DNA of 64,000 nucleotides from Eggerthellaceae bacterium (GTDB lineage: Bacteria > Actinomycetota > Coriobacteriia > Coriobacteriales > Eggerthellaceae), in assembly GCA_040774885.1 (NCBI GenBank), contig JAXGTO010000002.1:39328-103327 (forward strand). The letters are read 5' to 3'. Positions 757 to 62,670 of the stretch are shown one piece after another; the first letter of the stretch is position 1, and each line of letters opens with the position of its first letter. The position numbers and the translations under genes are program-made. The notes beneath the pieces are model-generated. The model saw only the letters and a list, made by a program, of their open reading frames with translations. It did not search any database and had not been told where the DNA came from.

Positions 757-766
757 CTCGCCCCGC

Positions 767-799
767 CACGCGACCCGCCGCAGGCGGGAGCACCCCCGC
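767..799. repeat. GC-rich hairpin repeat, copy 1 of 3 (CACGCGACCCGCCGCAGGCGGGAGCACCCCCGC)
   Basis: The 33-nt string is identical to 1072-1104. It contains a 6-bp stem CCCGCC/GGCGGG around GCA. Confidence 0.85.
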
Positions 800-1010
800 T
801 CCGATTCGCAACGAAACGTGCACTTCGCACATGGAATTCGAGATATTGTGGCCTTTTCAGAGAACCGATTGCCCTCCTTCGCCCTCTTTGATCGCATAAC
901 CCCAGTTCACAAAAACAAACGCAGGTAACCTGACGCGTTCGGCCCCACAGTATCCCGAATTCCAAGCAAATTTGGGCATTTTTCTGACGAATACGCTCTC
1001 TTGCCCTGTA
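800..1010 (+). repeat. Imperfect-palindrome intergenic element, copy E0 of 4
   Basis: Left box GGAATTCGAGATATTGTGGCC (833-853) pairs with right box GGCCCCACAGTATCCCGAATTCC (941-963). The central motif CCCCAGTTCA is at 900-909. The offsets GAATTC->motif (66 nt) and GAATTC->GAATTC (123 nt) are the same as in E1-E3. Confidence 0.75.
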
Positions 1011-1104: not shown

Positions 1105-1184
1105 GCAACAAGAAAGCCGCCCAAAGGCGGCTTTCAAAGTTGCGCTTCCCATCCCCCGCTCGCAGCACTTTCGGCGACTGACGG

Positions 1185-1277
1185 TTTCCCCGGCGGAGCT
1201 GATTCGCCCGCCTTTCGCGCGTAGCGTACTTCGCTACGTAAGCGCGAAAACAAGGGCGAAGCAGCCCACCGGGGGAA
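1185..1277 (-). terminator. Long (~90 nt) imperfect hairpin directly 3' of purH; possible terminator or structured element
   Basis: The arms TTCCCCGGCGGAGCTGATTCGCCCGCCTTTCGCGCGTAGCG and CGCTACGTAAGCGCGAAAACAAGGGCGAAGCAGCCCACCGGGGGAA pair with a few bulges. The hairpin ends 4 nt before the purH stop. There is no clear U-tract. Confidence 0.35.
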
Positions 1278-1280
1278 GCG

Positions 1281-2867
1281 TCAGTGCCGAAAGTGGCGGT
1301 GGGAGGTGAACACCATCGCGACGCCCTGCTCATCGGCAGCGGCGATTACTTCTTCATCGCGGATGGAACCGCCGGGCTGGATGACGGCAGTGACGCCCGC
1401 CTGGGCCAGCACGTCGAACCCGTCACGGAACGGGAAGAACGCATCGGAGGCAGCCACGGCGCCTTTCGCCTTGTCGCCTGCTTGATCGACGGCGATATGG
1501 GCGGAATTGACGCGATTGGGCTGACCGCCGCCCACGCCCACGGTTGCGTGGTCTTTGGCGATGAGAACAGCATTGCTCTTGACGCTCTTGCAGGCCTTCC
1601 AGGCAAACACCAGGCCATCGAGCTCGGCATCGGTGGGCTTGCGCTTGGTCGGGCAGGTGAACGCATCGATGTCGGCGGCTTCGGCCACTGCATCGCTTTC
1701 CTGGCAGAGCAGCCCGCCTTCAACGGCGCGGAATTCCACTTCACCACCAGCGGGGTTTACGCCTCCCGTCTGAAGCAGGCGGGCGTTTTTCTTCGCCTTG
1801 TACATATCGGCGGCATCCCCGGCGAACTGCGGGGCGATGATGGCTTCGACGAACTGCTTGTTGTTGAAAATGGCCACCACGACATCGCTGGTAACGGGAC
1901 GGTTGAATGCGATCACCCCACCGTAAGCGGAAATGGGATCGCATTCGTGCGCCCGTTTGTAGGCATCGACGACGTCATCGGACTCGCACACGCCGCATGG
2001 CGTGAGATGCTTGACGATGACGCAGGCGGGACGATCGAATTCACGCACGGCGCACCATGCGGCATCGAGATCGAGGTAGTTGTTGTAAGAAAGCTCCTTG
2101 CCCTGCAGCTGCGTGGCGCTGGCCAGGCTATGGGCGGCATGGGCATAGGCATCGCGTCGGTAGAACGCAGCCTTCTGATGCGGGTTTTCGCCATAGCGCA
2201 GGTCCTGCACCTTCGTTAAGGCCAGATCCATGGAGTCGGGGAACTCCGATGCCGTCGTCTGCTCGCCGGCGATCTGTCCGCGCATCCAGTTGGAAATGGC
2301 GGTGTCGTAGGCTCCGGTGGTTTCGAACACCTTGAGTGCGCACGCGGCACGCGTTTCGCGCGTGACGGCACCGTTGTTGCCGCGCATTTCTTCCAGGATA
2401 TCGTCGTAGCGCTCGGGATCGGTGACCACCGTGACGCTTTCGAAGTTCTTGGCGGCGGAGCGCAGCATGGAAGGACCGCCGATGTCGATGTTCTCGATGC
2501 ACGTGGCGAAATCAGCGCCGGAGTTCACCGTCGATGCGAATGCATAGAGGTTGACGACCACCATGTCTATCATCTGGATGCCGTGCTCGGCAGCCTGCGC
2601 CATGTGATCGGGGTTGTCCCGTTTGGCCAGCAATCCTCCGTGCACCTTGGGATGCAGGGTCTTGACCCGGCCGTCCATCATCTCGGGAAAACCGGTGACC
2701 TCTTCGATGGGGGTCACGGCAACGCCGGCTTCAGCCAGCGCATGCGCAGTGCCGCCCGTCGAAATGATGGTGGCTCCGAATTCCGAGCTGAGCGCGGATG
2801 CGAATTCCGCGATGCCCGTCTTATCGGTCACCGAAATCAACACGCGTCCGATTTTGGGATCTGCCAT
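1281..2867 (-). CDS. purH: Bifunctional AICAR transformylase / IMP cyclohydrolase
   Basis: 528 aa. It has an MGS-like N-terminus ([12 protein letters not shown]...STGGTA) and an AICARFT domain ([26 protein letters not shown]). Confidence 0.97.
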
Positions 2868-2870
2868 GAG

Positions 2871-3857
2871 CTACTTCCTTCCTAAGCTGCTCTCGTGCTT
2901 GTCTCGCGCCTCTGCGCCATAACGCTGCCGATAGCGCACGTCCACCAATTCAGCCACGATGGCGATTGCCAATTCGGCTGGGGTCTTAGCCCCGAACTTC
3001 AGGCCAATGGGCCGCTTGATGGCGTCCCATTGTTCTTCGGTCATGCCCTGGGCGACGCACAGATCGTGCACCGTGCCATTCTTCCCGGCGCAACCCATCA
3101 TGCCGGCGTAATGGACTTTGCACTGTGCGGCCCACAGGCAACCCTGCGGATCGAACATGTGCCCGCGCGTGAGCACGCACACATAATCATCCGGGTCGGC
3201 CTTCAGCGAATCCAGCTTATCAAAGCCCGACAGCACGATGCGCTCGGCTCGGGGAAAGCGCTCTTCGTTCACGTAAGCGGGGTCGTAATCGACCACCGTC
3301 ACGTCGAACCCCACATGATCGGCAAGCGCCGCCACTTCGCTGGACGCATCGGAGGCCCCCAGAAGCCACACATGCACTTTGTCGAACAGCGGGACGCTGC
3401 ACCAGGTAAGGCCATCGAACTGCTCGCAATGCATGGAGGGACCGCGCGTGGCATCTTTCATTTGGAAGATATCGCGCGCAGAAGGCTCGCGGGCACTGAC
3501 GATTTCTTTGGCATCGTTGCAGAAGAACACCATGCTGCGCCCATCGGCGCTTCCGATGTCGCCGTATTTCTTGGTGACCTCGTTGTCGGTGTTGGATTGC
3601 GCAGCGTCGGCATCGAATACCACTTTGAATCCCAACCATGCCAAATCACCCTCATCCATGGCGCGCAAAGCGCGCTCGAACGTGGGGATGTCGGCTTCGG
3701 TGAGCTCGGAAGCGATCTTCGCGAGCGCAGCTGCATCGATATGCGGAGTGCCTTGCGTTGCCGCCGAGGCGAAGCAGGGAAAATCAGCCGGATCGAGCAC
3801 GGGCGCGCCTCCCTGCCGCAACGCCGCGATGGCCTGGTCCAAAGCTGCTCTACGCAT
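2871..3857 (-). CDS. XdhC/CoxI-family accessory protein (XdhC Rossmann domain at C-terminus)
   Basis: The C-terminal part (VWLLGASDASSEVAALADHVGFDVTVVDYDP...VLTRGHMFD...IKRPIGLKFGAKTPAELAIAIVAELV) matches the XdhC Rossmann pattern. I chose the start at MRRAALDQ because the longer ORF would be antisense-overlapped by purN. This ATG overlaps the purN stop (ATGCGTAG). Confidence 0.8.
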   Translation of the reverse strand: MRRAALDQAIAALRQGGAPVLDPADFPCFASAATQGTPHIDAAALAKIASELTEADIPTFERALRAMDEGDLAWLGFKVVFDADAAQSNTDNEVTKKYGDIGSADGRSMVFFCNDAKEIVSAREPSARDIFQMKDATRGPSMHCEQFDGLTWCSVPLFDKVHVWLLGASDASSEVAALADHVGFDVTVVDYDPAYVNEERFPRAERIVLSGFDKLDSLKADPDDYVCVLTRGHMFDPQGCLWAAQCKVHYAGMMGCAGKNGTVHDLCVAQGMTEEQWDAIKRPIGLKFGAKTPAELAIAIVAELVDVRYRQRYGAEARDKHESSLGRK

Positions 3858-14065: not shown

Positions 14066-14097
14066 AAAACGGGATGCCAATTCGGCATCCCGTTTTT
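14066..14097. terminator. Bidirectional intrinsic terminator after ppk
   Basis: AAAACGGGATGCC-AATTC-GGCATCCCGTTTTT: a 9-bp GC-rich stem flanked by an A-run and a T-run. Confidence 0.75.
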
Positions 14098-14261
14098 CAT
14101 TCCCCCACTCCTGCTTCCAATTGGCAGCGTCACCTTGCAGCAATATGGCGTTCCCGTTTCACCCCATTGCACCTGCAAACTCATGGAGCACCGATTCTTC
14201 GGAGCAACACGGCATCCCGTTTCACTCCTTCGCATCGCACTAGGGGCGTTTTGCTTTTCTG

Positions 14262-14450
14262 AGATCACCAAAACGGCCTTTTCTGCAAAGAATTTGCGAT
14301 ACGGTACGCCTTCGACCCACGATTCAACGTCAAAAATGCGAACCTGTCGACAAAACCCCAGTTCAGCAAGATTCAATTCAGCAATAACTCCAAGAATGGA
14401 GTACCGTACCGCAAATTCTTTGCAGAAAACGGCGAATTTGCGTTCTCGGA
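14262..14450 (+). repeat. Imperfect-palindrome intergenic element, copy E1 of 4
   Basis: CTGCAAAGAATTTGCGATACGGTAC (14283-14307) versus GTACCGTACCGCAAATTCTTTGCAG (14401-14425) gives a 24/25 inverted repeat. CCCCAGTTCA is at 14356-14365. The flanks are homologous to E0/E2/E3. The element ends 3 nt from the asd stop. Confidence 0.8.
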
Positions 14451-14453
14451 CAC

Positions 14454-15494
14454 CTAGGGCAAGAGCAGCTGGGCGATTTGAACGGCGTTGAGCGCTGCGC
14501 CCTTGCGGATTTGGTCGGCAACGACCCACAGCGAGATGCCGTGCTCGACCGACGGATCACAACGCAAGCGACCCACGTAGGTATCGTCGGTGCCGGCGAG
14601 AAGCCCCGGCATGGGATATACGTTGTTTCGAGGGTCGTCCATCAGCGTGATGCCGGGAGCCGCTTGGAGCGCGACGCGCGCTTGGTCGACGGAAATCGGT
14701 CCATCGAACTCGATGTTGACGGCTTCTCCGTGACAGCGCAAAACGGGCACGCGCACGCACGTGGCGCACACGCCGATGTTGTCGTCGCCCATAATCTTCT
14801 TGGTTTCGACCACCATCTTCCATTCCTCTTTGTACGAGCCATCTTCCATGGGCACGTCGATATGGGGGATGGTATTGAAAGCGATCTGATCGCTGAATGC
14901 ATCTATGGTGAGCTCCTCGCCGTCCAAGAATTGACGAGTCTGGTCGTAGAGCTCGGCCATGGCCGCGGCACCCGCTCCGCTGGCCGCCTGATACGTGGAA
15001 ACGACGATGCGCTTGATAGGGGCGATGTCATGCAACGGCTTGCAAGCAACCACCATCTGGATGGTAGAGCAGTTGGGATTGGCGATGACGCCCGAATGGC
15101 CGGCGATGGCGTCTGGGTTTACTTCAGGCACCACCAGGGGAACGTCGTCATCCATGCGAAAGGCGCTGGAGTTGTCGATCATCACGGCCCCTGCATCGCA
15201 CACCGCCTGACGCATCTTCTTCGAAACGGAAGCCCCGGCGGAAAACAAGGCGATGTCGACTCCGGCAAACGAATCCGTCGTCATTTCCTCAACCGTCAAA
15301 TCGCCGGCAGGAACGTCGCCGCAACCGTCGAAAGGAAGCTTCTTGCCTGCACTGCGCGCTGAAGCCAATGCCCTCACCTGGGAAGCAGGGAAATCAACGT
15401 CGTGCAGCACCTTGAGGAATTCCGCTCCCACCGCACCGGTGGCGCCGGCGATGGCCACAACAGGACGAGCGGGCATCTTCACGTTCCAAACCAT
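14454..15494 (-). CDS. asd: Aspartate-semialdehyde dehydrogenase
   Basis: VAIAGATGAVG, NPNCSTI (active-site Cys) and GAALNAVQIAQ. The ATG at 15494 lies 7 nt after AGGGAG. Confidence 0.95.
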   Translation of the reverse strand: MVWNVKMPARPVVAIAGATGAVGAEFLKVLHDVDFPASQVRALASARSAGKKLPFDGCGDVPAGDLTVEEMTTDSFAGVDIALFSAGASVSKKMRQAVCDAGAVMIDNSSAFRMDDDVPLVVPEVNPDAIAGHSGVIANPNCSTIQMVVACKPLHDIAPIKRIVVSTYQAASGAGAAAMAELYDQTRQFLDGEELTIDAFSDQIAFNTIPHIDVPMEDGSYKEEWKMVVETKKIMGDDNIGVCATCVRVPVLRCHGEAVNIEFDGPISVDQARVALQAAPGITLMDDPRNNVYPMPGLLAGTDDTYVGRLRCDPSVEHGISLWVVADQIRKGAALNAVQIAQLLLP

Positions 15495-37368: not shown

Positions 37369-37388
37369 TTCCTCCTGGATATCCAGAC

Positions 37389-37430
37389 GAAGGAAGGGCC
37401 CCGGATAAACATCCGGGGCCCTTCCCTTTC
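37389..37430. terminator. Bidirectional intrinsic terminator between rubrerythrin and yebC
   Basis: GAAGGAAGGGCCCCGGAT-AAAC-ATCCGGGGCCCTTCCCTTTC: a long GC stem. Confidence 0.75.
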
Positions 37431-37456
37431 ATCAAGAACAATGTGAAATGAAGCGA

Positions 37457-38257
37457 TTACTCTTCGTCGAGCGCCGCAGCGATTTCGTCGGTCATCTCCA
37501 TGGCATGGTAGACGTTTTGCAGGTCCTCGAGCTCTTCGAGCTTGTCGACCAAACGCATGACCTTCTTGGCATCTCCCACTGAAAGCGAAGTGGGAGTGGT
37601 GGGCTCCATGATGAACTCGGCACCCTTCACGACCACACCGGCGTCTTCGAGGCCCTTCTTGACCGACATCAAATCGGAAGGGTTGGTGTAGACGATCCAC
37701 TCTTCGTCGGCGTCTTCATAGTCATCGCCACCGGCTTCTGCCACGGCCAACATGAACTCTTCTTCATCGCCCGCAGCGCCATTGGCCTTGACGGGTTCTT
37801 TCTTGTCGCCCTCGACTTCTTTGGGGACGAGGATCTGGCCCTTGCGTTCGAACTGGAACGCCACCGAACCGCTGGTTCCCAAATTGCCGCCCGCGTGGGT
37901 GAAGGCACTGCGCACATCGGCGGCAGTGCGGTTGCGATTGTCGGTGAGGGCCTCGCAATACACCGCCACGCCGCAGGGACCGTAGCCTTCGTAAACGACC
38001 GTTTCGTAATTGGCAGCATCTTTTCCGCTGCCGAAGGCCTTGTCGATGGCAACTTTGATCTTGTCTTTGGGAAGCGAGTAGCCTTTGGCCTTGTCGATTG
38101 CGGCAGCCAAGCTGGCATTGTTTTCGGGGTTGGGGTCACCACCCTCTTTGGCGGCAACGGTGATGTTGCGGCTCAATTTGCTGAACAGCGCGGAGCGCTT
38201 GGCATCCTGCGCGGCTTTGCGGTGCTTGGTGGTCGCCCACTTGGAATGTCCGGACAT
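37457..38257 (-). CDS. yebC: YebC/PmpR-family DNA-binding regulator
   Basis: MSGHSKWATTKHRKAAQDAKR N-terminal signature. The longer ORF-track start was rejected. Confidence 0.95.
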   Translation of the reverse strand: MSGHSKWATTKHRKAAQDAKRSALFSKLSRNITVAAKEGGDPNPENNASLAAAIDKAKGYSLPKDKIKVAIDKAFGSGKDAANYETVVYEGYGPCGVAVYCEALTDNRNRTAADVRSAFTHAGGNLGTSGSVAFQFERKGQILVPKEVEGDKKEPVKANGAAGDEEEFMLAVAEAGGDDYEDADEEWIVYTNPSDLMSVKKGLEDAGVVVKGAEFIMEPTTPTSLSVGDAKKVMRLVDKLEELEDLQNVYHAMEMTDEIAAALDEE

Positions 38258-38392
38258 GCTACTTCCCTTCTTACGTTGCAACAGCGCGATATTGTACCAC
38301 ACGGACCCCGCTTCCCCTCGCTTGGGCTGCAGGTACGCACAGCCCCTGCAAATCACAGACTTGGCCAGCCGGCGGCCTGCTACCATTAAACC

Positions 38393-38752
38393 ATGTCCTG
38401 CTATTTCATATACATCGTGCGCTGCGAAGACGGATCGCTTTACACCGGCATCACCACCGATGTGGTGCGCCGCATGAAAGAGCATCTGGGACAGGGCGGC
38501 AAGGGCGCCAAATACACACGTGCGCGCAGGCCTGTGGAACTGGCCGCGCTCTGGCAGGCGCCGGATAGATCAACCGCTTCGGTGCTCGAATACCGCATCA
38601 AGCATTTGGATCGTGAAGGCAAGGATGCGCTGGTGGTGCGTCCCGCGCGCGCTGCCCGACTGGTCGAAGACGTCGCCGACGTGCGCACCGTGGCGGCAAA
38701 ACGGCGCCGCTCCTGGTGGAACGACGCCGTCGCAATGCAGGATATCGACTGA
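38393..38752 (+). CDS. GIY-YIG nuclease-family protein (UPF0213-like)
   Basis: YFIYIVRCEDGSLYTGITTDVVRRMKEH (GIY...YTG signature). Confidence 0.85.
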   Translation: MSCYFIYIVRCEDGSLYTGITTDVVRRMKEHLGQGGKGAKYTRARRPVELAALWQAPDRSTASVLEYRIKHLDREGKDALVVRPARAARLVEDVADVRTVAAKRRRSWWNDAVAMQDID

Positions 38753-52444: not shown

Positions 52445-60411
<7,967 letters not shown>

Positions 60412-60466
60412 GGGGCATTTCCTCCTTCAAGAAAATCCGGAAAACTGCGAAAAGTCGCAAGTTCTT

Positions 60467-60495
60467 AAAATACGCGCGGAATATTCCCGAGTCAA
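60467..60495 (-). promoter_or_regulatory. Sigma-70-like promoter for rpoBC (TTGACT-17-TATTTT)
   Basis: On the minus strand the sequence reads TTGACTcgggaatattccgcgcgTATTTT, about 55 nt upstream of the rpoB GTG. Confidence 0.55.
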
Positions 60496-60551
60496 GGAAA
60501 ATTTTTACCAATTATGCAATTCGTATGTTTATCTGGGGAAACAGATGGAGC

Positions 60552-60790
60552 TCTGCAACCCTCGCGCAACAACAAGATTGGCGTTCGTCACGATTTCGGC
60601 CTTTAACGCAGCGAATTCGGGATAGTGTGGCGATTTGACCGACTTTCGAAGCCGGAAGCATCGACACCGCGAGCATCGTCCCAGTTCACGCAGCGACCAG
60701 AAAGACAGCTTTCTTGTTCCGAGCCACATTATCCCAGATTCGATGCGAAAACCGCCGTTTAAATGACAAATGGCTCGGATTTGAGATCGT
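60552..60790 (+). repeat. Imperfect-palindrome intergenic element, copy E2 of 4
   Basis: Left arm CGCAGCGAATTCGGGATAGTGTGGC (60607-60631) versus right arm GCCACATTATCCCAGATTCGATGCG (60723-60747) pairs at 21/25. TCCCAGTTCA is at 60679-60688. The left flank TTCGTCACGATTTCGGCCT is identical to E3. Confidence 0.8.
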
Positions 60791-61149
60791 TGAGCTGGAT
60801 TCAAGGCAAAAGGGTCAGACCTGGGAAGGAATCGGTCGAGAGTGCCAAACGACAACGGATAAGCCTCTCCAACCAAACCAGTCTTCACGGCATCCAACGG
60901 CCAATCTTCATCGAGGAAATCAGATGCCTATCGGCACCGAGCTGCAGCCCGATACCGGCATCTCATCACTCCAATCGAATTTCCTGCAGCGTTACCCTGC
61001 CGACATCGTCCGCAGCACCATCGTTCACAACCTCCATTGCAAAATGAGCAAGCCGTGAACGGACGCTGCAAGATTACGGCAAGAATCCCGAAAACGTAAT
61101 GCAAGACAATTGCAAAACGAGTGAATGCCCTACGCCGTACCATCATCGC

Positions 61150-62112
61150 ATGATTGCACTCAGCCATATATCCGCCGTCGAATTCTGGCGCTCGCCTACA
61201 GCAAAGACGCTCGAGGGTCAACGAATGCGCCCCTCAAAGGCTGCATGGGGAGACCCTCCCAGCACAAGAGCGCTTGCCGGCATAACGGCTGCTTGGCCGA
61301 ATGGCATCAACCGCCCGTTCAACATTATCGTTAACGATGCTTCATCTCGCAGGGATACCGCATGCGCAATAACGCACCTATGGTCGCTGCCAATTCCTAA
61401 CGGCTCGTTAATTGCTCAGGACGGTTATCTCGTTTCGTCGCCGGAATTCACGTTTGTTCAGATGGGAAACATCTTTTCACTTCCGCAGCTTATTGCGCTG
61501 GGTATGGAATTTGCGGGTGGATACCGACTGCGACCGCAAACCGAAGAGGGATTCGAAAAACGGCAACCGCTAACGACTGCAACGAAACTGCGTGCTTTCG
61601 TCGATTCCACTCGCGGCTCGCATGGCCGCACAAAGGCGCTTCGCGCCTGTGCCTATCTTATGGAGGGGTCCGCTTCACCCAGAGAAACGGCTCTCGCTCT
61701 ATTCTTGACATTGCCCTATCTGCTCGGAGGCTACGGAATCGCCCGTCCACAACTCAATTCGAGAGTGAGGATGCCCACCCGCGCAGTCTGGAAACCAGAT
61801 AGAAATTACCGGTCATGTGATTTGACTTGGCCGGAATTCAACTTTTCGCTGGAATACGACAGTAACCGTTGGCATACCGGATCCGAGCGAATCAGCCGTG
61901 ATGCAAAACGCCAAGGAGAGCTTGGGCTTACGGGCATGGAAGTTATTCCGGTTTCAAACCAGCAAATCATGAATGCAACGGATATGGAAAAGATCGCTCT
62001 TCTTGCGGCGAAAAAGACCGGAAAGAGAATTCCGAAATCGGCTCTAGGCCCAACCCAAGCACGAGTCTATCTACGACGCGAGATATTCAAAATCGGACAT
62101 ACGGATATCTAG
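61150..62112 (+). CDS. Hypothetical protein with C-terminal DUF559 / Vsr-like PD-(D/E)xK endonuclease-like region
   Basis: CDLTWPEFNFSLEYDSNRWH...RDAKRQ resembles the D...ExD...K core of DUF559 proteins. The start is uncertain (the ORF-track ATG is at 61099) and no clear RBS is visible. The gene looks lower in GC than its neighbours by eye. Confidence 0.55.
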   Translation: MIALSHISAVEFWRSPTAKTLEGQRMRPSKAAWGDPPSTRALAGITAAWPNGINRPFNIIVNDASSRRDTACAITHLWSLPIPNGSLIAQDGYLVSSPEFTFVQMGNIFSLPQLIALGMEFAGGYRLRPQTEEGFEKRQPLTTATKLRAFVDSTRGSHGRTKALRACAYLMEGSASPRETALALFLTLPYLLGGYGIARPQLNSRVRMPTRAVWKPDRNYRSCDLTWPEFNFSLEYDSNRWHTGSERISRDAKRQGELGLTGMEVIPVSNQQIMNATDMEKIALLAAKKTGKRIPKSALGPTQARVYLRREIFKIGHTDI

Positions 62113-62126
62113 GAACTATGCCGACA

Positions 62127-62345
62127 TTTGCAACCAGCAAACCCGACATTCGTCACGATTTCGGCCTATCATGCAGCGAATTCGCGATAGTGAAGTGATT
62201 CGGACAGCATTAGATACTGACGAGGCCAACGCAACATGCATCACCCCAGGTCATACGCTATCAGAAAAAAATACCCACTCATTTGGAGCCACAATATCCC
62301 GAATTCGATGCAGAAACAGGCGTTTCAATGGCAAATGGGGCGAAT
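62127..62345 (+). repeat. Imperfect-palindrome intergenic element, copy E3 of 4
   Basis: Left box GCGAATTCGCGATAGTGAAGT (62176-62196), central CCCCAGGTCA (62244-62253) and right box GCCACAATATCCCGAATTCG (62288-62307). The spacing of 66 and 123 nt is the same as in the other copies. Confidence 0.8.
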
Positions 62346-62490
62346 CGGATCTAGCGCGACTGGCCAGGGCGAATGGGGCGAATTGGAGCTAGCGCAACCG
62401 GCTGAAACGAACGAGGCGAATTGGAGCTAGCGCAACCGGCTGAAACGAACGAGGCGAATCGGAGCTAGCGCAACCGGCCGGGACGAACGG
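62339..62490. repeat. Tandem repeat, 38-bp unit x4 (GGCGAATTGGAGCTAGCGCAACCGGCTGAAACGAACGA)
   Basis: Units start at 62339, 62377, 62415 and 62453. The two middle units are identical and the outer ones are diverged. The unit length is not a multiple of 3, and there is a TAG in every unit. Confidence 0.9.
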
Positions 62491-62610
62491 TGCGATCGAA
62501 ACCGCCCGCCCAATGATGCAGAGGCACATATCGATGTTGAGGCGTTTAAGCACAACCGGTCACGATACGAGCGACGAGCGGCGGCACGGAAATCAGTTGG
62601 CAGCAGATTC

Positions 62611-62670
62611 ATCCCTATGTCGATTGAGAATCAACCAAAAATCCCTATGTCGATTGAGAATCAACCAAAA
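62611..62670. repeat. Perfect 30-bp tandem duplication (ATCCCTATGTCGATTGAGAATCAACCAAAA x2)
   Basis: 62611-62640 is identical to 62641-62670. Confidence 0.95.

What the first reader, a model, noticed from the sequence alone, without database searches (positions are those of the whole stretch)
14262..14450. Unnamed family of ~190-bp imperfect-palindrome intergenic elements with exactly conserved internal geometry (4 copies in 64 kb)
Four intergenic loci share one architecture, all in the same orientation: E0 ~800-1010, E1 ~14262-14450, E2 ~60552-60790 and E3 ~62127-62345.

Each has three parts. The left box is xxGAATTCGxGATAxxGTGGC. A central motif CCCCAGTTCA follows. The right box is the reverse complement of the left box (GCCACxxTATCCCGAATTC), and it is followed by GCAGAAAACGGCG-like sequence.

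The distance from the left GAATTC to the central motif is exactly 66 nt in all four copies. The distance from the left to the right GAATTC is exactly 123 nt in all four. The sequence between the boxes is otherwise strongly diverged.

Arm sequences differ between copies but stay complementary within a copy. For example, E1 has ACGGTAC/GTACCGT where E2 has GTGTGGC/GCCACAT. This looks like compensatory change.

Indel-free spacing together with covarying arms argues for a constrained structure, either a structured RNA or a protein-bound cruciform/recombination site, rather than random decay of a MITE. I do not recognise the element as ERIC, BOX, RUP, Correia or REP.
Basis: seen in the sequence. 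Interest (0 to 1): 0.7.

Follow-up and report, generated by a model that had tools for sequence, protein, structure and literature searches.

The report
Palindromic repeat linked to nuclease gene
The flagged sequence is a real, previously undescribed ~190-bp hairpin-forming repeat whose internal geometry is conserved even in other genera of gut-type actinobacteria (Eggerthellaceae). It tends to sit next to an uncharacterised mobile nuclease gene, so it is probably that gene's DNA (or RNA) partner rather than a decaying jumping-gene relic.

Summary
Four same-strand copies lie at 802-994, 14258-14450, 60581-60773 and 62146-62338. All share the inverted boxes GAATTYGNGATA / TAYCNCRRATTC exactly 123 nt apart and CCCCAG(T/G)TCA exactly 66 nt from the left box. 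The intervening 81 nt are near random (33-37% identity against 26% expected).

- **Not a known family.** There is no Rfam match, no conserved ORF, no target-site duplication, no promoter or terminator, and no transposase in the window.
- **Strict pattern scans found nothing.** Scans of GTDB genomes, JGI metagenomes and IMG/VR returned only chance or unrelated hits.
- **New finding.** E2 and E3 bracket a foreign-composition 337-aa gene encoding a DUF559/EDxHD-type nuclease. Homologues of that gene in two other Eggerthellaceae genomes carry strongly diverged copies of the element beside them, on the same strand. The dyad axis sits at exactly the same distance from the CAGNTCA motif. Pairing is kept (32-35 of 51 Watson-Crick pairs), and 34 of 51 pairs change on both sides across six sequences.
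- **Best reading (about 0.4).** It is the cognate cis element of this accessory nuclease-gene family, similar to REP-RAYT or a homing site and acting on DNA. E0 and E1 would be gene-less copies.
- **Main rival (about 0.25).** A structured RNA is not excluded.

The evidence rests on six sequences from three genomes, and the source genome itself could not be scanned.

The parts
14258..14450 (+). E1, the flagged copy. It has 53-nt arms that are 81% complementary around an 87-nt centre. It lies between the ppk terminator (14066-14096) and the asd stop codon (14454-14456).
14290..14301 (+). E1 left box, GAATTTGCGATA
14349..14365 (+). E1 apex motif, GACAAAACCCCAGTTCA (offsets 59-75), lying just 3' of the dyad axis
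14407..14418 (+). E1 right box, TACCGCAAATTC, the reverse complement of the left box with compensated changes
802..994 (+). E0, a solo copy between a DnaJ-like membrane protein gene (ends 756) and purH (1281-2867, - strand). It is bracketed by 38-nt GC-rich hairpin repeats.
60581..60773 (+). E2. It lies upstream of the conserved rpoB promoter/5'UTR (homology to relatives ends at about 60528) and 325-450 nt upstream of the nuclease gene, on the same strand.
61099..62112 (+). 337-aa accessory gene (NCBI aa, start 61225). GC3 is 0.52, against 0.7-0.8 in the neighbours. The C-terminus is a DUF559/EDxHD (Vsr-like) nuclease domain. E2 and E3 bracket it in direct orientation.
62146..62338 (+). E3. 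It starts 33 nt after the nuclease gene's stop codon and is the closest relative of E2 (arms 81-84% identical, loops 38-49%).
62337..62495 (+). 38-nt x 4.2 tandem array abutting the right end of E3. Its relation to the element is unknown.

Best explanation
E1 belongs to a family of ~193-bp imperfect palindromes. Each has two ~50-nt arms around a 91-nt unpaired, sequence-free centre. That centre carries one strand-specific motif (GCATNNYCCCAGNTCA) at a fixed position 6-11 nt 3' of the dyad axis.

The family is most likely the cognate cis-acting DNA element of an accessory, horizontally moving gene family encoding DUF559/EDxHD-type nucleases. Copies sit immediately beside these genes on the gene's strand in three Eggerthellaceae genomes, and in this window two copies bracket the gene.

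Proposed mechanism: the nuclease-family protein, or a complex containing it, recognises the two inverted boxes and the apex motif in a fixed geometry on extruded hairpin/cruciform or looped DNA. It uses the element either as its own terminal or landing site (homing-like spread of the gene to element copies) or to propagate the element in trans (REP-RAYT-like). Gene-less copies such as E0 and E1 would be solo, MITE-like derivatives or unoccupied sites.

**Shown:** the family, its geometry, pairing conservation with changes on both sides, and its adjacency and co-orientation with the nuclease genes.

**Inferred:** that the protein binds or cuts the element, that it acts on DNA rather than RNA, and any mobility.
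For: - **Geometry across genera.** With the register fixed only by the central CAGNTCA, the best dyad axis is the same (offset sum 128) in all six sequences, scoring 19-28 of 30 inner pairs against 2-17 (mostly 3-13) at other axes. L004 keeps 32 Watson-Crick + 2 G-U of 51 pairs and L047 keeps 35 + 4. Across the six, 34 of 51 pairs change on both sides.
- **Membership of the two outside copies.**
  - L047:11106-11306 has GCATAATCCCAGCTCAG against GCATAACCCCAGTTCAC in E0, a 14/17 match at the expected place.
  - L004:4735-4917 aligns to the covariance model with no indel across the loop. It shares CAGGTCA and the 12-mer GCAGAAACAGGC with E3 in the same columns.
- **Gene association.**
  - E2 and E3 bracket the 337-aa gene.
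  - The L004 copy is 83 nt upstream of homologue P0002, and the L047 copy is 145 nt downstream of homologue P0018. All are on the gene's strand.
  - 93.6 kb of relatives' loci without the gene gave no element with filters off.
  - A fourth homologue (L050) is flanked by direct repeats of a different palindromic motif. A fifth (L045) has a perfect 29-nt-arm palindrome 43 nt upstream.
- **The gene is accessory and nuclease-like.** It has flat GC3. 8 and 5 of 30 homologues match DUF559 and MTES_1575. Profile and fold searches match the I-Bth0305I homing-endonuclease catalytic domain and PvuRts1I/AbaSI. P0002 and P0010, which are 35% identical, occupy the same NrfD-ferritin gap in opposite orientations.
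- **A DNA-level reading fits.** There is no wobble bias on either strand and no consensus structure in the loop. No transcription signals are shared. The box-motif-box centre distances of 65 and 52 bp are about 6.2 and 5.0 helical turns (inference).
- **Length constraint.** Loops are saturated with zero net indels, whereas related intergenic DNA shows 9 gap openings per 42 mismatches.
Against: - Only three genomes and six distinct sequences support the association.
- The two outside copies score only 20 and 15 bits with the covariance model. The same model gave 19.9 bits to a spurious hit inside a coding region, and blastn and nhmmer do not find the outside copies. Their membership therefore rests on positional coincidences and the shared axis.
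- Two of the five homologue loci lack a recognisable E element.
- E0 and E1 are not next to any such gene, and no protein-DNA contact has been shown.
- The N-terminal 210 residues have no recognised DNA-binding fold.
- No target-site duplication or empty site demonstrates mobility.
- Same-strand placement in 4 of 4 gene-adjacent copies, and + strand loops that are G-poor and fold less well than shuffles, would fit an RNA equally well.
Confidence: 0.4

Rival explanations
1. Structured non-coding RNA. The + strand is transcribed, either on its own or by read-through from the upstream co-oriented gene. It folds into a long closing stem that presents an unstructured ~90-nt loop, and the C-rich motif ACCCCAGUUCA in that loop acts as a seed or a protein-binding site. 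It could be a partner or regulator of the nuclease, or a family of sibling small RNAs.
For: - Stem pairs are maintained through double changes across six sequences.
- The motif is strand-specific, and all four gene-adjacent copies share the gene's strand.
- E0, E1, E3, L004 and L047 each lie downstream of a co-oriented gene.
- + strand loops are G-poor and A-rich (GC skew -0.18, p=0.04; AT skew +0.20).
- + strand loops fold less well than shuffles in 6 of 6 copies.
Against: - There is no G-U enrichment among non-Watson-Crick positions on either strand.
- No promoter or terminator is shared.
- The E3 stem is no more stable than shuffles.
- There is no Rfam relative.
- Exact loop length is unusual for an RNA loop that has no internal structure.
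- In L004 an AT-rich, promoter-like stretch lies between the element and the gene.
- E1 lies beyond the ppk terminator.
Confidence: 0.25
2. Ordinary non-autonomous transposable element (MITE). An unseen transposase mobilises it in trans, and its proximity to the nuclease genes only reflects shared residence in permissive, variable intergenic hot spots.
For: - It is a dispersed, non-coding ~190-bp element with long terminal inverted repeats in intergenic DNA, 3 of 4 between convergent genes.
- E0 sits inside an array of REP-like hairpin repeats, a common insertion target.
- E2 lies in lineage-variable DNA upstream of the conserved rpoB promoter.
- Selection for transposability could conserve the ends, an internal host-factor site and the length.
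Against: - There is no target-site duplication.
- No transposase or recombinase is present among about 48 window genes.
- No solo boxes occur elsewhere in the window.
- Copies are mutationally saturated rather than recent.
- Repeated adjacency and co-orientation with one gene family in three genomes is unlikely by chance.
Confidence: 0.2
3. Invertible DNA switch (inverton) or other host architectural site. A recombinase acts on the two inverted boxes and flips the 105-bp centre, and the apex motif binds a DNA-bending protein.
For: - The architecture is inverted boxes at an exact short spacing with a central motif.
- Homologous genes sit in opposite orientations in L004 and L050.
Against: - Three of the four window copies lie between convergent gene ends, with nothing to regulate.
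- No invertase is present in the window.
- All six copies are in the same orientation relative to the motif.
- The cited enrichment concerns inverted repeats within coding sequences, not these palindromes.
Confidence: 0.07

Closest known systems
REP/REPIN elements with their RAYT (REP-associated tyrosine transposase) gene
   Same: Both are hairpin-forming palindromic intergenic repeats dispersed in the chromosome. In both, copies flank a single accessory nuclease or transposase-type gene thought to recognise them, and pairing is maintained between arms.
   Different: The flanked gene is a DUF559/EDxHD PD-(D/E)xK-type nuclease, not a Y1 HUH transposase. The element is ~190 bp with a 91-nt unpaired centre and an apex motif, not two short REPs. 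The flanking copies are direct, not inverted. Copies are highly diverged and apparently few.
ERIC/IRU and Correia/NEMIS-type MITEs
   Same: Both are 100-200-bp imperfect palindromes in intergenic or 3' regions. Correia elements also carry a central protein (IHF) site between the inverted ends.
   Different: No target-site duplication was found. Filler sequence is saturated while the spacing is exact, whereas ERIC is conserved throughout. The host is Actinomycetota (Eggerthellaceae). The element is linked to a nuclease gene.
Integron attC sites
   Same: Both are imperfect palindromes whose structure and geometry, not sequence, are conserved. Both lie in one orientation next to accessory gene cassettes (here E2-gene-E3).
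   Different: The R''/R' core sites (RYYYAAC/GTTRRRY) are absent and no integrase is present. Copies are scattered among housekeeping genes. The centre has a fixed length of 91 nt with a conserved motif, rather than a variable terminal structure.
Free-standing EDxHD/Vsr-like homing endonucleases (I-Bth0305I type)
   Same: The catalytic-domain fold and sequence profile match. The gene is accessory, with foreign composition, and occupies variable intergenic sites.
   Different: Known members home into specific protein-coding targets or introns. A repeated structured palindrome as partner or target has not been described, to my knowledge. The N-terminal 210 residues are unrelated.

Membership tests
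MITE (miniature inverted-repeat transposable element) | Terminal inverted repeats on a short non-coding element | tested here: met
   Arms of about 50 nt in a 193-bp element. There is no conserved ORF, and E3 has stop codons in every frame.
MITE (miniature inverted-repeat transposable element) | Target-site duplication flanking each copy | tested here: not met
   No direct repeat occurs at the arm ends of any of the four copies.
MITE (miniature inverted-repeat transposable element) | A parent insertion sequence or transposase with matching ends | tested here: inconclusive
   None among about 48 window genes, and no solo ends in the window.
REPIN-RAYT system | A Y1 (HUH) transposase gene flanked by the repeats | tested here: not met
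   The flanked gene has a DUF559/EDxHD nuclease domain, with no Y1_Tnp hit.
REPIN-RAYT system | Many near-identical short REP doublets per genome | tested here: not met
   There are four copies in 64 kb, and their loops are at random-level identity.
Integron attC / cassette array | R''-L''...L'-R' core sites (RYYYAAC/GTTRRRY) and a nearby IntI integrase or attC cluster | tested here: not met
   The core motifs are absent on reading the arms. No integrase is present in the window. The copies are 1.5-46 kb apart among core genes.
Any Rfam RNA family | A covariance-model match | tested here: not met
   Only a tRNA passes the gathering threshold. No hit overlaps an element at E<=5.
Inverton (invertible promoter or switch) | Both orientations present in a population, with an invertase nearby | not testable with these tools
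   No reads are available. No recombinase is present in the window.
Type III toxin-antitoxin (RNA repeats upstream of a toxin gene) | Tandem ~36-nt repeats plus a terminator upstream of a ToxN/AbiQ-type RNase gene | tested here: not met
   The gene is not ToxN-like. The 38-nt array lies downstream of E3.

The most novel reading that the evidence does not exclude
The element is the obligatory nucleic-acid partner of a widespread, uncharacterised family of DUF559/EDxHD nucleases. It would act either as a folded DNA site the enzyme uses to move itself (a new kind of homing or transposition unit with palindromic landing pads) or as a structured RNA that works with the nuclease. That would give the first functional handle on DUF559 proteins in Actinomycetota.
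Probability: 0.25. Interest if true: 0.8.

Novelty: new variant of a known kind. Interest (0 to 1): 0.55.

Why it matters
DUF559-type nuclease genes are common in Actinomycetota and have no known role or partner. A conserved-geometry palindrome that travels with them would make their function directly testable through binding and cleavage assays and strain comparisons.

The element is also a clean example of structure and spacing being conserved while sequence turns over completely. That makes it a good seed for a new covariance model for Eggerthellaceae genomes, which are important human-gut drug metabolisers. If the link turns out to be incidental, it is simply one more lineage-restricted intergenic repeat.

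Tried and rejected
- **Protein coding.** Six-frame translations share only box-derived residues, and E3 has stop codons.
- **Known RNA.** Rfam was searched at the gathering threshold and at E<=5.
- **Target-site duplications.** None were found at the arm ends.
- **Promoter or terminator role.** Nothing is shared between copies. ppk and purH have their own terminators.
- **Loops as guides or antisense.** There is no match of 13 nt or more elsewhere in the window.
- **Alternative pairing of the central segment with an arm.** This appears only in E2 and is not family-wide.
- **Conserved hairpins within the loop.** The consensus folding energy is about 0.
- **RNA strand choice from wobble pairs.** No bias was found.
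- **Strict IUPAC scans.**
  - GTDB genomes gave 3 chance hits.
  - JGI metagenomes gave 24 unrelated or chance hits.
  - IMG/VR gave nothing for the box-plus-motif pattern and 4 chance hits for motif-plus-right-box. The 16-mer apex motif gave 95 stretches, consistent with chance, and none was palindromic.
  - These patterns were too narrow, because the boxes differ in L004 and L047.
- **Plasmid and phage blastn.** No hit.
- **Retrieving the source genome.** This was not possible.
- **Orthologous asd and rpoB loci of relatives.** No element was found. The 19.9-bit hit in L042 is a false positive inside a coding sequence.
- **GAATTC avoidance.** There is none: 40 sites against about 10 expected.
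- **parS or matS-like sites.** Considered by eye and not supported.
- **The search for related loci with the nuclease alignment.** This failed because the alignment has no conserved stretch to search with.

Full report
**Observation.**
The left GAATTY hexamer starts at 834, 14290, 60613 and 62178. CCCCAG(T/G)TCA starts 66 nt later in all four, and the right hexamer 123 nt later in all four. All copies are on the + strand.

A box-N55-motif pattern gives 4 matches against 0.02 expected. Because that pattern was derived from the copies, I also checked independent measures:
- The 12-nt box occurs six times against 0.09 expected, and only inside the elements.
- E0 and E1 share an identical 12-mer at the same offset.
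- Pairwise blastn of whole intergenic regions recovers just the elements (E2-E3 4e-28, E3-E0 1e-6, E2-E0 2e-5).

MAFFT aligns 201 nt of the four copies without a single gap. The palindrome extends from offset -32 to +160 relative to the left hexamer. That gives E0 802-994, E1 14258-14450, E2 60581-60773 and E3 62146-62338.

**Pattern of conservation.**
Identity is 0.72-0.73 in the boxes, 0.90 in the central 10-mer and 0.52 in the outer arms (0.81-0.84 for E2-E3). In the two loop segments it is only 0.33-0.37, against 0.26 for random sequence of that composition. The filler is therefore essentially saturated, yet both loop lengths are exact.

In related Raoultibacter strains, intergenic DNA shows 9 gap openings per 42 mismatches. 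Neutral decay should therefore have changed these lengths many times over, so spacing is under constraint (inference).

Of 51 arm pairs, 69.6% of cells are standard pairs. Fourteen pairs change on both sides, against 3-7 in slid controls and 7.9 +/- 2.0 in shuffles. Most of these changes are contributed by E1, which is both the best palindrome (41 of 51 Watson-Crick pairs; z -7.3 as RNA, -7.8 as DNA) and the most divergent copy. E0 and E2 are moderately stable (z about -3). E3 is no more stable than shuffles (z -0.3).

**What it is not.**
- Rfam has no match, even at E<=5.
- No frame is open in all copies.
- No target-site duplication is visible.
- No promoter or terminator is shared, and ppk and purH have their own terminators outside the elements.
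- The loops match nothing else in the window and have no consensus secondary structure.
- Non-Watson-Crick arm positions are 8 G-U on the + strand, 16 on the - strand and 46 other. That is the random expectation and gives no RNA-strand signature.
- All ~48 window genes are housekeeping except one. There is no transposase, recombinase or RAYT.

**Organism and public scans.**
The flanking genes place the window in Eggerthellaceae. The best Asd relatives are 78-81% identical (Eggerthellaceae, Raoultibacter, Gordonibacter), and the best RpoB relatives are 87-88%. The source genome is seen once in the protein collection and could not be retrieved.

Strict-pattern scans gave nothing useful:
- GTDB representative genomes: 3 chance hits lacking the right box.
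- JGI metagenomes: 24 unrelated or chance hits.
- IMG/VR: none.
- blastn against plasmids and phages: none.

A covariance model built from the four copies (R1) finds no further copy in the window with filters off. The only other hit is an unrelated GC-rich palindrome at 1163-1298. It also finds none in the asd and rpoB loci of relatives. A 19.9-bit hit in L042 lies inside a coding sequence and needs large deletions, so it is a false positive.

Comparison with relatives shows that the rpoB promoter and 5'UTR are conserved up to window position ~60528. E2 lies beyond that point, in lineage-variable DNA.

**The link to a nuclease gene.**
E2 and E3 are the most similar pair. They bracket, in direct orientation, a 337-aa gene (61099-62112). 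Its codon-position GC is flat (GC3 0.52, against 0.7-0.8 in the neighbours), so it is probably foreign.

The gene has 67 homologues at 40% identity or less. Eight and five of 30 scanned members match DUF559 and REase_MTES_1575 respectively. A profile of the family matches the catalytic domain of the homing endonuclease I-Bth0305I and PvuRts1I. A confident AlphaFold model (pLDDT 88) matches the same nuclease folds only in its C-terminal third, and the N-terminal 210 residues match nothing solved.

I fetched the loci of four homologues, with these results:
- **L004 (P0002).** A long palindrome lies 83 nt upstream of the gene on the same strand. With filters off it is the top covariance-model hit of the locus (20 bits, E 2.8e-4). 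The alignment has no indel across the 91-nt loop. CAGGTCA sits under the central motif, and the 12-mer GCAGAAACAGGC is identical to E3 in the same columns.
- **L047 (P0018).** A 189-nt palindrome lies 145 nt downstream of the gene on the same strand. Its centre reads GCATAATCCCAGCTCAG, against GCATAACCCCAGTTCAC in E0.
- **L045 (P0006).** A different, perfect 29-nt-arm palindrome lies 43 nt upstream of the gene.
- **L050 (P0010).** The gene is flanked by direct repeats of another palindromic motif.

Sequence-only searches do not detect the L004 and L047 copies. I therefore tested the geometry directly. With the register fixed only by the CAGNTCA heptamer, the best dyad axis is the same (offset sum 128) in all six sequences. 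It scores 19-28 of 30 inner pairs, against 2-17 (mostly 3-13) at other axes. In that register L004 keeps 32 Watson-Crick + 2 G-U of 51 pairs and L047 keeps 35 + 4. Across the six sequences, 34 of 51 pairs change on both sides.

The family thus extends across genera with its geometry intact while the box sequences drift. That drift explains why the strict patterns found nothing.

P0002 and P0010 are 35% identical and occupy the same NrfD-ferritin gap in opposite orientations in two genomes. That fits an accessory, mobile gene family.

**Interpretation.**
The best-supported reading (about 0.4) is that the element is the cognate cis element of this nuclease-gene family. This would be a REP-RAYT-like or homing-site-like partnership in which the boxes and apex motif are recognised in a fixed geometry, probably on DNA. 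E0 and E1 would be gene-less copies. Protein recognition, DNA-level action and mobility are all inferred, not shown.

A structured RNA (about 0.25) remains possible for three reasons:
- All four gene-adjacent copies share the gene's strand.
- The motif is strand-specific.
- + strand loops are G-poor and fold less well than shuffles in 6 of 6 copies.

An ordinary MITE with incidental proximity to the gene (about 0.2) fits the intergenic distribution and the position of E0 inside a REP-like array. It fails the duplication test and does not explain the recurrent gene adjacency.

An inverton (about 0.07) fits the architecture, and the literature reports that DUF559 genes are enriched at predicted inversion loci (PMC9881135). 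However, three of the four window copies have nothing to regulate.

Covariation alone does not prove base pairing. Quasi-palindrome template-switch correction, or co-evolution of two binding sites with a diverging protein, would give the same counts (established knowledge and inference).

**Caveats.**
- The association rests on five gene loci from four or five genomes and on six distinct elements.
- The covariance-model scores of the outside copies are no higher than one known false positive.
- The source genome's total copy number is unknown.

**Verdict.**
The feature is real and previously undescribed. It has evolutionarily conserved geometry and an unexpected gene association. I rate it a new variant of the hairpin-repeat kind, of moderate to good interest (0.55), and it needs a genome-scale association test.

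Noticed in passing
window 762-799, 1021-1058, 1067-1104: Three copies of a 38-nt GC-rich, REP-like hairpin repeat (..CGCGACCCGCCGCAGGCGGGAGCACCCCCGC) bracket E0. Two of them are 46 nt apart, as if E0 had landed inside a short array.
   Followed up: partly
window 62337-62495 and 62611-62670: A 38-nt x 4.2 tandem array starts at the last base of E3, and its unit contains a box-like GGCGAATYGGAGCTAG. A perfect 30-nt x 2 repeat lies further on, before gatB.
   Followed up: partly
window 14066-14234: A perfect bidirectional terminator lies after ppk (14066-14096). Repeats of GGCATCCCGTTTCAC.., spaced about 63 nt apart (14078, 14152, 14205-14234), lie just upstream of E1.
   Followed up: no
window 1163-1298: A 136-nt GC-rich imperfect palindrome overlaps the 3' end of purH. 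It gives a weak covariance-model hit on both strands but is unrelated in sequence to the E family.
   Followed up: partly
window 61099-62112: The 337-aa protein has a confident AlphaFold model (pLDDT 88). Only the C-terminal third matches known nuclease folds. The N-terminal ~210 residues have no match among solved structures.
   Followed up: partly
L004:5001-5957 versus L050:1643-2623: Two nuclease-family homologues (P0002 and P0010) that are 35% identical occupy the same gap between the NrfD and ferritin genes in opposite orientations. An extra 405-aa gene with no family assignment is present only in L004.
   Followed up: partly
L050:1517-1546, 2889-2905, 3002-3031; L045:59-179: Other nuclease homologues carry different palindromes beside them. 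In L050, ACACAATCGTTAACGATTGT units flank the gene as direct repeats. In L045, a perfect 29-nt-arm palindrome lies 43 nt upstream. Neither is recognisably related to the E family.
   Followed up: partly
window 60412-60528; L040-L044 upstream of rpoB: The rpoB promoter (TTGACT-17-TATTTT) and 5'UTR, including TTGCGACTTTTCGCAG, are conserved across Eggerthellaceae. The DNA further upstream differs completely between lineages. L041 has ~28-nt tandem repeats there.
   Followed up: partly
window 52445-56866: RpoC is 1473 aa long and carries a C-terminal helix-hairpin-helix / alpha-CTD-like domain (residues ~1321-1372). Relatives have it too.
   Followed up: no
L009, L010, L019, L022, L026, L028 (JGI metagenome contigs): An unrelated MITE-like element is built from tandem GAATTCGTGATATGTACATATCACGAATTC palindromes between CCGTTTTACTATTTAATCAT inverted termini. 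It was picked up only because it shares the GAATTCGNGATA box.
   Followed up: no
L034:11305-11470 (Raoultibacter MAG): A 166-nt imperfect palindrome (30-nt arms, 87% complementary) lies downstream of asd, the position E1 occupies in the window. It is unrelated in sequence and single-copy in the loci held.
   Followed up: partly
window 37379-37650 (- strand): A sub-threshold Rfam match to the proteobacterial sRNA sX6 (25 bits against a gathering score of 40, E 0.019), overlapping the start of the YebC-family ORF (37457-38485, - strand) and the sequence just upstream of it. It is probably chance.
   Followed up: no
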